Assembly: GCF_013122565.1 (NCBI RefSeq)
Contig: NZ_CP053258.1
Length of the DNA: 64,000 nt
From: Escherichia coli
GTDB lineage: Bacteria; Pseudomonadota; Gammaproteobacteria; Enterobacterales; Enterobacteriaceae
Reading direction: 5' to 3' (one strand)
The position numbers were made by a program. Positions 14,701-16,983 of this stretch are shown here, piece by piece. How positions within the stretch are numbered: the first letter of the stretch is position 1; each line of letters starts with the position of its first letter.

Positions 14701-16983
14701 CACCTCGCGCGAACTGCGTAGCGCCCGGTCGCCCGCCATAAATTCACGGCTTTGCTGGCTTAAGCCTTTTTCCATGCGATCGCTGATATTACCCAGCGCC
14801 AGCACGCAGGCCACCGCCAGGCTTAACGCCAGCCAGACAATCAATAGCGAAGGCGAGCGCCATTCGCGCCAGAACCAGCGTGCAATCATGCTTCCTCCTG
14901 CAACTGCCCATTCACCAGCCGTAAGCAGCGGTCGCAGCGTGCCGCCAGTTGCAGGTCGTGGGTCACCATAATCAACGTGGTGCCATGCTCACGGTTGAGG
15001 GAAAACAGCAGGTCGGCAATTTTATCACCCGTCTGGCGGTCAAGGTTACCGGTGGGTTCGTCGGCAAACAGCACATCAGGTCGACCGTTAAAGGCTCGCG
15101 CCAGCGCCACTCGTTGCTGTTCGCCGCCGGAAAGCTGTGCCGGAAGATGATCAAGACGTTTACCCAGCCCTAACTGTTCGAGCAACGCTTTCGCCCCGTT
15201 ACGACTTTCTGTGCTACTCTCACCGCGCAGCAGCGCAGGAAGCTCGACGTTTTCCAGCGCGTTAAGGGTAGGAATTAACATAAACGACTGAAAAACAAAG
15301 CCGACGTGCTTCGCGCGCAACTTTGCCCGCGCTTCTTCGTCCATATTATGTAGCGGTTGTCCCACCAGACTCACTTCGCCACTGCTGCCGTCATCCAGCC
15401 CTGCGAGGATTGCCAGCAAGGTTGACTTACCCGATCCCGACTCGCCCACCAGCGCGATGGTCTCGCCACGTTTGACAACCAGCTCAACTCCGGTGAGGAT
15501 GGAGAGTTCATGCTCCCCCTGACCGACGGACTTCTTAAGATGATGAACTTCAACAATGTTTTCCGCTGGCATTTGCCCTTCCTGTTCCTGGTCCTGTTAA
15601 CCTTCCGCGCCGCCGCAGCGGACACGTTATTGATTCTGGGTGATAGCCTGAGCGCCGGGTATCGAATGTCTGCCAGCGCGGCCTGGCCTGCCTTGTTGAA
15701 TGATAAGTGGCAGAGTAAAACGTCGGTAGTCAATGCCAGCATCAGCGGCGACACCTCGCAACAAGGGCTGGCGCGCCTTCCGGCTCTGCTGAAACAGCAT
15801 CAGCCGCGTTGGGTGCTGGTTGAACTGGGCGGCAATGACGGTTTGCGTGGTTTTCAGCCACAGCAAACCGAGCAAACGCTGCGCCAGATTTTGCAGGATG
15901 TCAAAGCCGCCAACGCTGAACCATTGTTAATGCAAATACGTCTGCCTGCAAACTATGGTCGCCGTTATAATGAAGCCTTTAGCGCCATTTACCCCAAACT
16001 CGCCAAAGAGTTTGATGTTCCGCTGCTGCCCTTTTTTATGGAAGAGGTCTACCTCAAGCCACAATGGATGCAGGATGACGGTATTCATCCCAACCGCGAC
16101 GCCCAGCCGTTTATTGCCGACTGGATGGCGAAGCAGTTGCAGCCTTTAGTAAATCATGACTCATAAAGCAACGGAGATCCTGACAGGTAAAGTTATGCAA
16201 AAATCGGTCTTAATTACCGGATGTTCCAGTGGAATTGGCCTGGAAAGCGCGCTCGAATTAAAACGCCAGGGTTTTCATGTGCTGGCAGGTTGCCGGAAAC
16301 CGGATGATGTTGAGCGCATGAACAGCATGGGATTTACCGGCGTGTTGATCGATCTGGATTCACCAGAAAGTGTTGATCGCGCAGCCGACGAGGTGATCGC
16401 CCTGACCGATAATTGTCTGTATGGGATCTTTAACAATGCCGGATTCGGCATGTATGGCCCCCTTTCCACCATCAGCCGTGCGCAGATGGAACAGCAGTTT
16501 TCCGCCAACTTTTTCGGCGCACACCAGCTCACCATGCGCCTGTTACCCGCGATGTTACCGCACGGTGAAGGACGTATTGTGATGACCTCATCGGTGATGG
16601 GATTAATCTCCACGCCGGGTCGTGGCGCTTACGCGGCCAGTAAATATGCGCTGGAGGCGTGGTCAGACGCGCTGCGCATGGAGCTGCGCCACAGCGGAAT
16701 TAAAGTCAGCCTGATTGAACCCGGTCCTATTCGTACTCGTTTTACCGACAACGTCAACCAGACGCAAAGTGATAAACCAGTCGAAAATCCCGGCATCGCC
16801 GCTCGCTTTACGTTGGGACCTGAAGCGGTGGTCGACAAAGTGCGCCATGCTTTTATTAGCGAGAAGCCGAAGATGCGCTATCCGGTAACGCTGGTGACCT
16901 GGGCGGTAATGGTGCTCAAGCGCCTGCTGCCGGGGCGCGTGATGGACAAAATATTGCAGGGGTGAGTTGAAGCGCGCGCTTAA

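What the first reader, a model, noticed from the sequence alone, without database searches (positions are those of the whole stretch)
15540..15572. Divergent tesA and ybbA coding sequences overlap by 33 bp at their 5' ends
The tesA start (ATG at 15540, plus strand) lies inside the first 11 codons of ybbA (ATG at 15572, minus strand). Both promoters and ribosome binding sites are therefore embedded in the partner's coding sequence. This could couple expression of the thioesterase with the YbbA-YbbP ABC transporter, or it may mean one of the annotated starts is wrong.
Basis: seen in the sequence. Interest (0 to 1): 0.25.

Follow-up and report, generated by a model that had tools for sequence, protein, structure and literature searches.

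The report
Real head-to-head tesA–ybbA gene overlap
The first codons of the E. coli thioesterase gene tesA and of the divergent ABC-transporter gene ybbA really are written on opposite strands of the same 30-33 bases; this is rare for bacteria and conserved, but already annotated and published.

Summary
Observation confirmed. ybbA starts at ATG 15572 (minus strand). tesA starts at ATG 15540 or ATG 15543 (plus strand). The coding overlap is therefore 33 or 30 nt.

Neither start is an annotation error:
- ybbA has no other in-frame start before its Walker A motif.
- All 16 other Enterobacterales loci compared keep the ybbA ATG and at least one of the two tesA ATGs at the same positions.
- The two alternative tesA starts that some pipelines call (ATG 15510, TTG 15573) are not conserved.

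Expression signals do sit inside the partner gene. A published tesA transcription start maps to 15508, with a TTGACA -35 box inside ybbA codons 32-34. The ybbA Shine-Dalgarno lies in tesA codons 13-15. Only weak ybbA transcription starts are mapped, 155-390 nt inside tesA.

Synonymous sites are frozen in the overlap (codon identity 0.91 against about 0.45 elsewhere).

Across 79 mostly gammaproteobacterial loci the two genes stay head-to-head with little or no spacer. In Vibrio the two start codons share CATG.

The overlap is in the K-12 annotation, is noted in the 2025 YbbAP-TesA structure paper, and is listed as a "divergent excludon" in 2025. Any regulatory coupling is more likely interference than co-activation, and it is untested. 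Low interest; already known.

The parts
14886..15572 (-). ybbA CDS (ABC ATPase, 228 aa), start ATG at 15572..15570
   Evidence: ORF. NF007879 equivalog matches 1-228 of 228. Matches PDB 9GE6-8 YbbA over all 228 residues, one substitution. It is the only in-frame ATG/GTG/TTG upstream of V42. The ATG is conserved in all 17 Enterobacterales sequences compared (the window and 16 genome loci), with a stop directly upstream in Photorhabdus and Providencia.
15540..16166 (+). tesA CDS (208-aa precursor; 207 aa if started at 15543), stop included
   Evidence: NF007819. ATGATG pair conserved: three loci keep only the second ATG, Photorhabdus keeps only the first, and none loses both.
15540..15572 (.). 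Head-to-head coding overlap, 33 nt (30 nt from 15543), antisense in codon register
   Evidence: Synonymous codon identity is 0.91 for codons 1-11 of both genes, against 0.43 (ybbA) and 0.47 (tesA) elsewhere.
15472..15477 (+). tesA promoter -35 hexamer TTGACA, inside ybbA codons V32-V33-K34
   Evidence: Lies 17 nt upstream of GAGGAT, at the expected distance from the published TSS. Invariant in 13 Enterobacteriaceae sequences although neighbouring third positions vary. Codons 32-34 have codon identity 1.00. It is TCGACA in Photorhabdus and Providencia.
15495..15500 (+). tesA promoter -10 hexamer GAGGAT (3 of 6 to consensus), in ybbA codons I25-L26
   Evidence: Position inferred from the TSS. 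The equivalent position carries AAGGAT in most Enterobacteriaceae and TATAGT/AATATA in Photorhabdus and Providencia. The consensus scan missed it.
15508..15539 (+). tesA 5' UTR (32 nt) from the mapped TSS, antisense to ybbA codons 12-22; weak SD ACGGA at 15526-15530
   Evidence: Kim et al. 2012 supplementary table: TSS 519021(-), 45 reads, 32-nt UTR. Its 51-nt upstream string equals window 15458-15508. SD duplex -3.2 kcal/mol.
15576..15584 (-). ybbA Shine-Dalgarno (CAGGAAGGG on the minus strand), inside tesA codons P13-F14-L15
   Evidence: Duplex -7.0 kcal/mol. TTCCTG is conserved in 12 of 13 Enterobacteriaceae sequences; Kluyvera has GTCCTG, which still keeps AGGA.
15510..15512 (+). In-frame upstream ATG with a strong SD-like GGAG: a decoy start (218-aa calls in databases)
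   Evidence: It lies only 2 nt from the TSS, so its SD is not transcribed. It is the antisense of ybbA H21. Not kept outside Enterobacteriaceae and lost in 2 of 13 inside it; in-frame stops block it in Citrobacter FP75 and Rahnella.
15573..15575 (+). In-frame TTG used by some annotations (197 aa, zero overlap)
   Evidence: 197-aa homologues; KPN_00472 is annotated at 594 nt. Replaced by TGG, CTC, TTA or TTT in 6 of 16 Enterobacterales. SD -0.9 kcal/mol. Starting here would remove the only positive charge (R9) of the signal-peptide n-region.
15727..15959 (-). Weak mapped ybbA transcription starts inside tesA (about 15727, 15914, 15959), giving 155-390-nt 5' UTRs antisense to tesA
   Evidence: Kim 2012: 518802 and 518570, 2 reads each. 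Cappable-seq: 518615, score 2.45, and none nearer to ybbA. Mapping to the window checked.
12475..14889 (-). ybbP (permease), overlaps the ybbA stop by 4 nt (ATGA)
   Evidence: NF041854.
16156..16965 (+). ybbO (SDR reductase), downstream of tesA in the same direction

Best explanation
The overlap is genuine. ybbA starts at ATG 15572 and tesA at ATG 15540 or 15543, so 30-33 nt encode the N-termini of both proteins on opposite strands. The sequence-tolerant n-region of the TesA signal peptide (MMNFNNVFRWH) is written antisense to the constrained first beta-strand of the YbbA ATPase (ENIVEVHH). There is no intergenic DNA, so all expression signals are embedded in the partner gene. SHOWN: the tesA promoter (TTGACA, 17-nt spacer, GAGGAT, TSS about 15508) and its 32-nt leader lie in ybbA codons 12-34. 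The ybbA Shine-Dalgarno lies in tesA codons 13-15. The only mapped ybbA starts are weak and lie 155-390 nt inside tesA. These signals and the dual coding freeze synonymous sites. INFERRED: the two promoters face each other, and the two mRNAs are complementary over at least 220 nt, a stretch that includes both ribosome binding sites. The expected effect is therefore RNA polymerase collision and/or sense-antisense pairing (an excludon), with the stronger tesA promoter damping ybbAP, not co-activation. Also inferred: the Enterobacterales state arose by upstream migration of the tesA start from an older zero-spacer junction such as the CATG seen in Vibrio, and was then locked in by double constraint.
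For: Sequence and ORFs.
K-12 and PGAP annotation.
ybbA start: there is no alternative in-frame start before V42. Homology to LolD and MacB begins at residues 5-9. The equivalog profile matches from residue 1. The ATG and the SD core AGGA are conserved.
tesA start: at least one of the two ATGs is kept in all 17 Enterobacterales sequences (the window and 16 loci). His10 and His11 of ybbA are always CAT where they are His.
Geometry: the distance between the GDS codon and the Walker A codon is exactly 193 nt in all 13 Enterobacteriaceae sequences and 196 nt in the other families.
Synonymous codon identity: 0.91 in the overlap and 0.65-0.68 over the tesA UTR and promoter, against 0.43-0.47 background. 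No other block reaches these values.
Transcription starts: tesA TSS with 45 reads and a 32-nt UTR, ybbA TSSs with 2 reads each (PMC3415461). Cappable-seq shows only weak distal ybbA TSSs (PMC4782308).
Literature: tesA-ybbA is listed among 16 divergent excludons of MG1655 (PMC12288877). [quoted passage not shown]
Wider taxa: head-to-head adjacency in 79 of 80 loci, with a median anchor distance of 215 nt. CATG-sharing starts occur in Vibrio, Psychromonas and Rheinheimera, and Pseudomonas has a 10-nt spacer.
Against: No direct translation-start data were found for either gene; four ribosome-profiling or N-terminomics resources had no entry. So 15540 and 15543 cannot be told apart, and minor use of 15510 cannot be excluded. 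The tesA -10 hexamer is poor (3 of 6), and the consensus promoter scan found nothing in 15200-15900. The ybbA TSS calls are near the noise level (2 reads; Cappable-seq scores 1.5-2.5), so the real ybbA promoter is not established. Conservation of the 11 overlapping tesA codons cannot be separated from the constraint imposed by ybbA. The interference (excludon) step rests on RNA-seq coverage reported by others. No reciprocal expression or RNase III dependence has been shown for this pair. Negative coupling between subunits of one 2:1:1 complex is counter-intuitive.
Confidence: 0.8

Rival explanations
1. Annotation artefact: tesA really starts at TTG 15573, directly abutting the ybbA ATG, so the coding regions touch but do not overlap.
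For: Several gene callers choose this start: there are many 197-aa homologues, and Klebsiella KPN_00472 is annotated at 594 nt. Divergent overlaps are often mispredictions, and only 2 are counted in E. coli.
Against: The TTG is replaced by TGG, CTC, TTA or TTT in 6 of 16 Enterobacterales, whereas an ATG at 15540 or 15543 is always kept. It has no SD (-0.9 kcal/mol). The product would begin M-PFLFLVLL with no positively charged n-region. The mapped TSS would leave a 65-nt leader containing two good AUGs in frame.
Confidence: 0.04
2. tesA starts further upstream at ATG 15510, which has the best Shine-Dalgarno match. This would give a 218-aa precursor and a 63-nt overlap.
For: SD duplex of -8.4 kcal/mol. 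218-aa versions are called in many metagenome and genome records.
Against: The mapped TSS at 15508 leaves a 2-nt leader without the SD. The ATG is simply the antisense of ybbA His21, and the 'SD' is the antisense of the conserved LSILTG codons. It is CTG in two Enterobacteriaceae, is not kept in Rahnella, Photorhabdus or Pectobacterium, and is cut off by in-frame stops in Citrobacter FP75 and Rahnella.
Confidence: 0.05
3. ybbA starts at a downstream codon, so the overlap disappears.
For: None was found.
Against: There is no ATG, GTG or TTG in frame between codon 1 and V42, which lies next to Walker A. Even the rare-start ATT at I6 would still overlap by 18 nt. The conserved first beta-strand (residues 6-12), aligned to LolD, MacB and MJ0796, itself covers 15537-15557 and so covers the tesA ATGs. 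The NF007879 profile matches from residue 1.
Confidence: 0.01
4. The zero-spacer, overlapping junction is a selected regulatory device. Mutual antisense pairing and promoter collision would set the TesA:YbbAP ratio, or make free TesA and transporter-bound TesA alternate. On this reading it is not a passively frozen by-product of genome compaction.
For: Head-to-head adjacency with 60 nt or less of spare DNA is kept in 57 of 79 loci across Gammaproteobacteria and one Cupriavidus. The complementary stretch covers both ribosome binding sites. The pair is classed as an excludon from 58 RNA-seq samples. The products form one complex.
Against: Conservation can be explained by dual coding and by the difficulty of separating overlapped genes. 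The overlap length varies from -60 to +78 nt among taxa, so no specific duplex is conserved. No expression data show reciprocity for this pair.
Confidence: 0.25

Closest known systems
Divergent excludons (ExcludonFinder map of E. coli MG1655; Listeria mogR/fli prototype)
   Same: Divergent neighbours whose 5' transcripts overlap. tesA-ybbA is itself one of the 16 divergent excludons listed (PMC12288877).
   Different: Typical excludons overlap in untranslated regions. Here the coding sequences and both ribosome binding sites overlap, and the partners encode subunits of one complex rather than opposing functions. Reciprocal expression has not been shown for this pair.
Orthologous tesA-ybbA junctions in other Gammaproteobacteria (Vibrio, Idiomarina, Pseudomonas)
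   Same: Same two genes, same head-to-head orientation, essentially no intergenic DNA.
   Different: Vibrio shares only 2 nt (CATG). Aliidiomarina has 0 nt. Pseudomonas has a 10-nt spacer that is the tesA SD. Only Enterobacterales have the 30-33-nt overlap; one Pectobacterium locus has 75-78 nt.
Co-directional short overlaps (ATGA/TGATG) used for translational coupling, for example ybbA-ybbP in this window
   Same: Overlapping coding ends of genes for one complex.
   Different: Those lie on the same strand and the same mRNA, and they couple translation by termination-reinitiation. The tesA-ybbA overlap is on opposite strands and different mRNAs, so that mechanism cannot apply.
Mispredicted long or divergent overlaps in prokaryotic annotation
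   Same: It belongs to the rarest orientation class (2 of 663 overlaps in E. coli, PMC4161906), and different pipelines give different tesA starts.
   Different: Comparative and TSS evidence here supports the overlap rather than removing it.

Membership tests
Head-to-head (divergent) overlapping gene pair | Two protein-coding genes on opposite strands whose 5' coding ends share nucleotides | tested here: met
   15540-15572 is shared. Both are real genes by equivalog models.
Head-to-head (divergent) overlapping gene pair | Both start codons are the true ones, so the overlap is not a start-site miscall | tested here: met
   Comparative conservation, absence of alternative starts, and TSS position. 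No direct translation-start measurement was available.
Divergent excludon | Divergent genes with overlapping 5' transcripts | tested here: met
   Published TSSs place the tesA start at 15508 (+) and ybbA starts at or beyond 15727 (-), giving at least 220 nt of overlap. Listed in ExcludonFinder Table 1. The ybbA TSS support is weak.
Divergent excludon | Mutually exclusive or reciprocal expression of the two genes | not testable with these tools
   No expression data for this pair were retrievable. The supplement of PMC12288877 is not held.
Divergent excludon | RNase III processing of the sense-antisense duplex | not tested
   The main text of the p19 dsRNA paper (PMC7373196) does not mention tesA. 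Its supplement was not searched.
TesA (thioesterase I / protease I / lysophospholipase L1), SGNH/GDSL hydrolase | Equivalog score above cutoff, GDS(L) nucleophile motif, N-terminal secretion signal | tested here: met
   NF007819 scores 413 bits against a cutoff of 270. PF13472 and PF00657 match. G34-D35-S36 are invariant. The n/h/c-region signal MMNFNNVFRWH-LPFLFLVLLTF-RAAAA is read from the sequence. Cleavage after residue 26 is from my own knowledge of the 1993 TesA papers and was not checked here.
YbbA, ATPase of the YbbAP-TesA type VII ABC system | Equivalog score above cutoff, Walker A motif, adjacent ybbP permease and tesA partner | tested here: met
   NF007879 scores 478 bits against a cutoff of 336. 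NF041854 identifies YbbP. Matches the YbbA chain of PDB 9GE6-8 with one substitution. The complex is described in PMC12646458.

The most novel reading that the evidence does not exclude
Gammaproteobacteria keep the tesA-ybbA junction at or near zero spacing (from +33 nt in Enterobacterales, through a shared CATG in Vibrio, to about -10 nt in Pseudomonas). The most novel reading still open is that this is because the mutually antisense 5' ends, which cover both ribosome binding sites, act as a built-in ratio controller between a periplasmic lipid hydrolase and the ABC transporter that feeds it. That would be an excludon acting between subunits of one complex.
Probability: 0.2. Interest if true: 0.45.

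Novelty: already known. Interest (0 to 1): 0.18.

Why it matters
For annotation, this is a checked example of a true divergent coding overlap, a class usually treated as error. Pipelines that shorten tesA to 197 aa or lengthen it to 218 aa to avoid or enlarge the overlap are probably wrong.

For engineering, tesA is widely manipulated for fatty-acid production. Edits to its first 60 or so codons or to its promoter also change the ybbA coding sequence, its ribosome binding site and its leader, and the reverse holds too.

For biology, if the antisense geometry does tune TesA against YbbAP, that would bear on how the newly described YbbAP-TesA lipid-hydrolase complex is balanced. That remains untested.

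Tried and rejected
1. Consensus sigma-70 scan of 15200-15900 found no promoter. The mapped tesA promoter has a 3-of-6 -10 hexamer and falls below the scan's threshold.
2. Direct translation-start evidence was sought and not found. The TRAINSPOTTER N-terminomics supplements, the TetRP supplements and the ribosome-signature supplements hold no tesA or ybbA entry. The Ribo-RET preprint has no held supplement.
3. Thomason 2015 dRNA-seq is not held. The ExcludonFinder supplement is not held.
4. The stored part of the Cappable-seq file covers only plus-strand TSSs, so the tesA TSS could not be cross-checked there.
5. I looked for a conserved synonymous-site block inside tesA that would mark a ybbA promoter. 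None stands out: codons 65-72 are only slightly raised.
6. Plain nucleotide invariance across 16 Enterobacterales does not separate the N-terminal region (0.43 against 0.42), because amino-acid changes also occur there. Only the synonymous-site measure is informative.
7. My simple signal-peptide heuristic failed on about 20 distant loci. For these I relied on anchor distances and on reading the junctions by hand.
8. A downstream ybbA start, an upstream tesA start (15510) and the TTG 15573 start were considered and rejected; see the rival explanations.

Full report
**What is in the sequence.**
- The window is Escherichia coli: 5418 of 5426 complete E. coli genomes match 14800-16300 at 95-99.5% identity.
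- On the plus strand, 15540-15545 reads ATGATG. At 15570-15572 the plus strand reads CAT, which is the ATG of a 228-codon minus-strand ORF, 14886..15572.
- The two products meet the NCBIfam equivalog models for TesA (NF007819, 413 bits) and YbbA (NF007879, 478 bits, matching 1-228 of 228). The flanking genes are ybbP and ybbO.
- The 33 nt at 15540-15572 are therefore codons 1-11 of both genes, antisense and in codon register. TesA M1 and M2 face YbbA H11 and H10, and TesA H11 faces YbbA M1.
- MG1655 carries exactly this overlap, tesA c(519139..519765) and ybbA 519733..520419. RefSeq PGAP records start tesA at the second ATG, giving a 30-nt overlap.

**Are the starts right? ybbA.**
- The only in-frame ATG, GTG or TTG upstream of V42 (next to Walker A) is the annotated ATG.
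- Homology to LolD, MacB and MJ0796 begins at residues 5-9. The first beta-strand (I6-L12, 15537-15557) itself lies over the tesA ATGs.
- In the 16 Enterobacterales loci from a scan of one genome per species, the ATG sits 42 codons before the Walker A glycine in 15, and 57 codons before it in Pectobacterium. In Photorhabdus and Providencia an in-frame stop lies directly upstream of it.
- The ATG is preceded by CAGGAAGGG (-7.0 kcal/mol against the anti-SD). Its core AGGA is kept in all 13 Enterobacteriaceae sequences.

**Are the starts right? tesA.** Database homologues are called at 218, 208/207, 204, 197 and 194 aa, so pipelines disagree. Three candidate starts matter:
- ATG 15510 has a strong SD-like GGAG (-8.4 kcal/mol).
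  - It is the antisense of ybbA His21, and its SD is the antisense of the conserved LSILTG codons.
  - It is CTG in two Enterobacteriaceae and is not kept in Rahnella, Photorhabdus or Pectobacterium. In-frame stops cut it off in Citrobacter FP75 and Rahnella.
  - The mapped transcription start lies only 2 nt before it.
- TTG 15573 would give zero overlap.
  - It is replaced by a non-start codon in 6 of 16 Enterobacterales and has no SD.
  - Starting there would remove the only positive charge of the signal-peptide n-region.
- The ATGATG pair is the conserved start. Superficieibacter, Enterobacter Bisph1 and Mangrovibacter keep only the second ATG. Photorhabdus keeps only the first. No locus loses both.

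ybbA His10 and His11 are always CAT where they are His, whereas other His codons vary. So the overlap is at least 30 nt. Whether 15540 or 15543 is used cannot be decided here, and it does not affect the mature protein.

**Expression signals.**
- Kim et al. 2012 (PMC3415461, supplementary table) list a tesA TSS at 519021(-) in U00096.2, with 45 reads and a 32-nt 5' UTR. Its 51-nt upstream string is window 15458-15508.
- That places the TSS at about 15508. TTGACA lies at 15472-15477 (ybbA V32-V33-K34), followed by a 17-nt spacer and GAGGAT at 15495-15500 (ybbA I25-L26).
- The -35 box is invariant in 13 Enterobacteriaceae sequences, although neighbouring third codon positions vary freely. Photorhabdus and Providencia have TCGACA with a better -10 at the same place.
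- For ybbA, the same table gives only 2-read TSSs, 155 and 387 nt upstream (window 15727 and 15959). Cappable-seq (PMC4782308) gives weak TSSs at 518615, 518388 and 518168 (window 15914, 16141, 16361) and none closer.
- So ybbAP transcripts appear to begin as antisense RNAs inside tesA-ybbO. The two mRNAs are complementary over at least 220 nt, a stretch that includes both ribosome binding sites.

**Constraint.** Codon identity was measured among sequences sharing the majority residue, across 16 Enterobacterales.

| Gene and codons | What they cover | Codon identity |
|---|---|---|
| ybbA 1-11 | coding overlap | 0.91 |
| ybbA 12-22 | tesA leader | 0.68 |
| ybbA 23-36 | tesA promoter | 0.65 |
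| ybbA 37-228 | rest of gene | 0.43 |
| tesA 1-11 | coding overlap | 0.91 |
| tesA 12-17 | ybbA SD and spacer | 0.53 |
| tesA 18-208 | rest of gene | 0.47 |

No sliding block elsewhere reaches the N-terminal values (maxima 0.48 in ybbA and 0.57 in tesA).

**Wider comparison.**
- All 80 loci recovered with a TesA profile have a YbbA-like ABC ATPase upstream on the opposite strand; all are Gammaproteobacteria except one Cupriavidus. One locus, from a symbiont, is degraded.
- I measured the distance from the tesA GDS glycine codon to the ybbA Walker A glycine codon.

| Group | Anchor distance (nt) |
|---|---|
| All 13 Enterobacteriaceae sequences (12 genomes; the window region is included twice) | 193 |
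| Other Enterobacterales | 196 |
| Vibrio | 194-198 |
| Pseudomonas | 215-216 |
| Median of 79 loci | 215 |

- 57 of 79 loci leave 60 nt or less beyond minimal coding needs.
- Reading the junctions by hand gives the following.
  - Vibrio, Psychromonas and Rheinheimera share CATG between the two start codons, a 2-nt overlap.
  - Aliidiomarina has CAT|ATG.
  - Pseudomonas has CAT-GGAGAATCCG-ATG.
  - Aeromonas has a 57-nt gap.
  - One Pectobacterium has a 48-nt insertion inside the overlap, lengthening both N-termini (75-78 nt overlap).
- The 30-33-nt overlap is therefore the Enterobacterales version of an old zero-spacer junction. An upstream shift of the tesA start onto ATGs offered by the antisense of two His codons is the simplest origin; this is an inference.

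**How it most likely works.**
- Shown: the overlap is real, and the signals are embedded and conserved.
- Inferred: a moderately active tesA promoter inside ybbA faces weak ybbA promoters inside tesA. This geometry produces polymerase collisions and complementary 5' RNAs.
- ExcludonFinder (PMC12288877) lists tesA-ybbA among 16 divergent excludons of MG1655, from 58 RNA-seq samples.
- The expected sign is interference, with tesA damping ybbAP, not co-activation. It is unknown whether this is selected or a by-product of a junction that cannot easily be pulled apart.
- Interference is somewhat counter-intuitive, because YbbA, YbbP and TesA form a 2:1:1 complex (PMC12646458).

**Known or new.**
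- The overlap has long been in the K-12 annotation. [quoted passage not shown] The transcriptional overlap is catalogued.
- Divergent coding overlaps are rare: 2 of 663 overlapping pairs in E. coli (PMC4161906). This one is a good, validated example, but it is not a discovery.
- The comparative details are incremental: the frozen geometry, the -35 box held at synonymous sites, the CATG junctions, and the non-conserved decoy starts.

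Noticed in passing
window 16156-16195: The ybbO start is ambiguous. The ORF from ATG 16156 (269 aa, as annotated in K-12) overlaps the tesA 3' end by 11 nt. The NCBIfam SDR equivalog NF005950 aligns only from residue 14 (M14, ATG 16195). Starting there would give a 256-aa protein and a 28-nt gap after tesA.
   Followed up: no
window 11800-12470 (Rfam hit 11825-11913, minus strand): An AgrB-family antisense RNA hit (56.5 bits, gathering score 40) lies between mnmH/ybbB (10669-11763) and ybbP. Matching E. coli genomes annotate a dinQ type I toxin gene here. About 1325 of 5426 genomes carry this arrangement at full length. K-12 has rhsD next to ybbP instead.
   Followed up: partly
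L013 (Pectobacterium betavasculorum) about 3500-3650: A 48-nt insertion sits inside the tesA-ybbA overlap. It adds 16 residues to the TesA signal-peptide n-region (basic, RSFAWRSTRWAGLRKH) and about 15 residues to the YbbA N-terminus. The coding overlap becomes 75-78 nt.
   Followed up: partly
L019, L022, L024, L026-L028, L033, L037, L040: In Vibrio, Psychromonas, Rheinheimera and one gammaproteobacterial MAG, the tesA and ybbA start codons share the palindrome CATG, an overlap of 2 nt.
   Followed up: yes
L021 (Vibrio mexicanus): The anchor distance is 198 nt rather than 197. The CATG-derived ATG is out of frame with the GDS motif, which suggests a 1-nt indel, either an assembly error or a real frameshift.
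   Followed up: no
L018 (Candidatus Pantoea persica): TesA and YbbA match only in fragments and neither anchor motif is present. The locus looks degraded in this symbiont.
   Followed up: no
window 14886-14889: ybbA and ybbP overlap by 4 nt (ATGA). This is the usual co-directional arrangement associated with translational coupling.
   Followed up: no
window 57216-57299 and 62976-63053 (both minus strand): Rfam hits above gathering score: sroB sRNA (82 bits) and naRNA4/CssrE, a REP-derived nucleoid-associated RNA (81 bits).
   Followed up: no
protein database: Many distant TesA homologues are called with 30-60 extra N-terminal residues. This is probably because the frame antisense to the partner ABC ATPase stays open upstream of the true start, as seen in the Pseudomonas and Vibrio loci. 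It may be a systematic over-extension in annotations of this family.
   Followed up: partly
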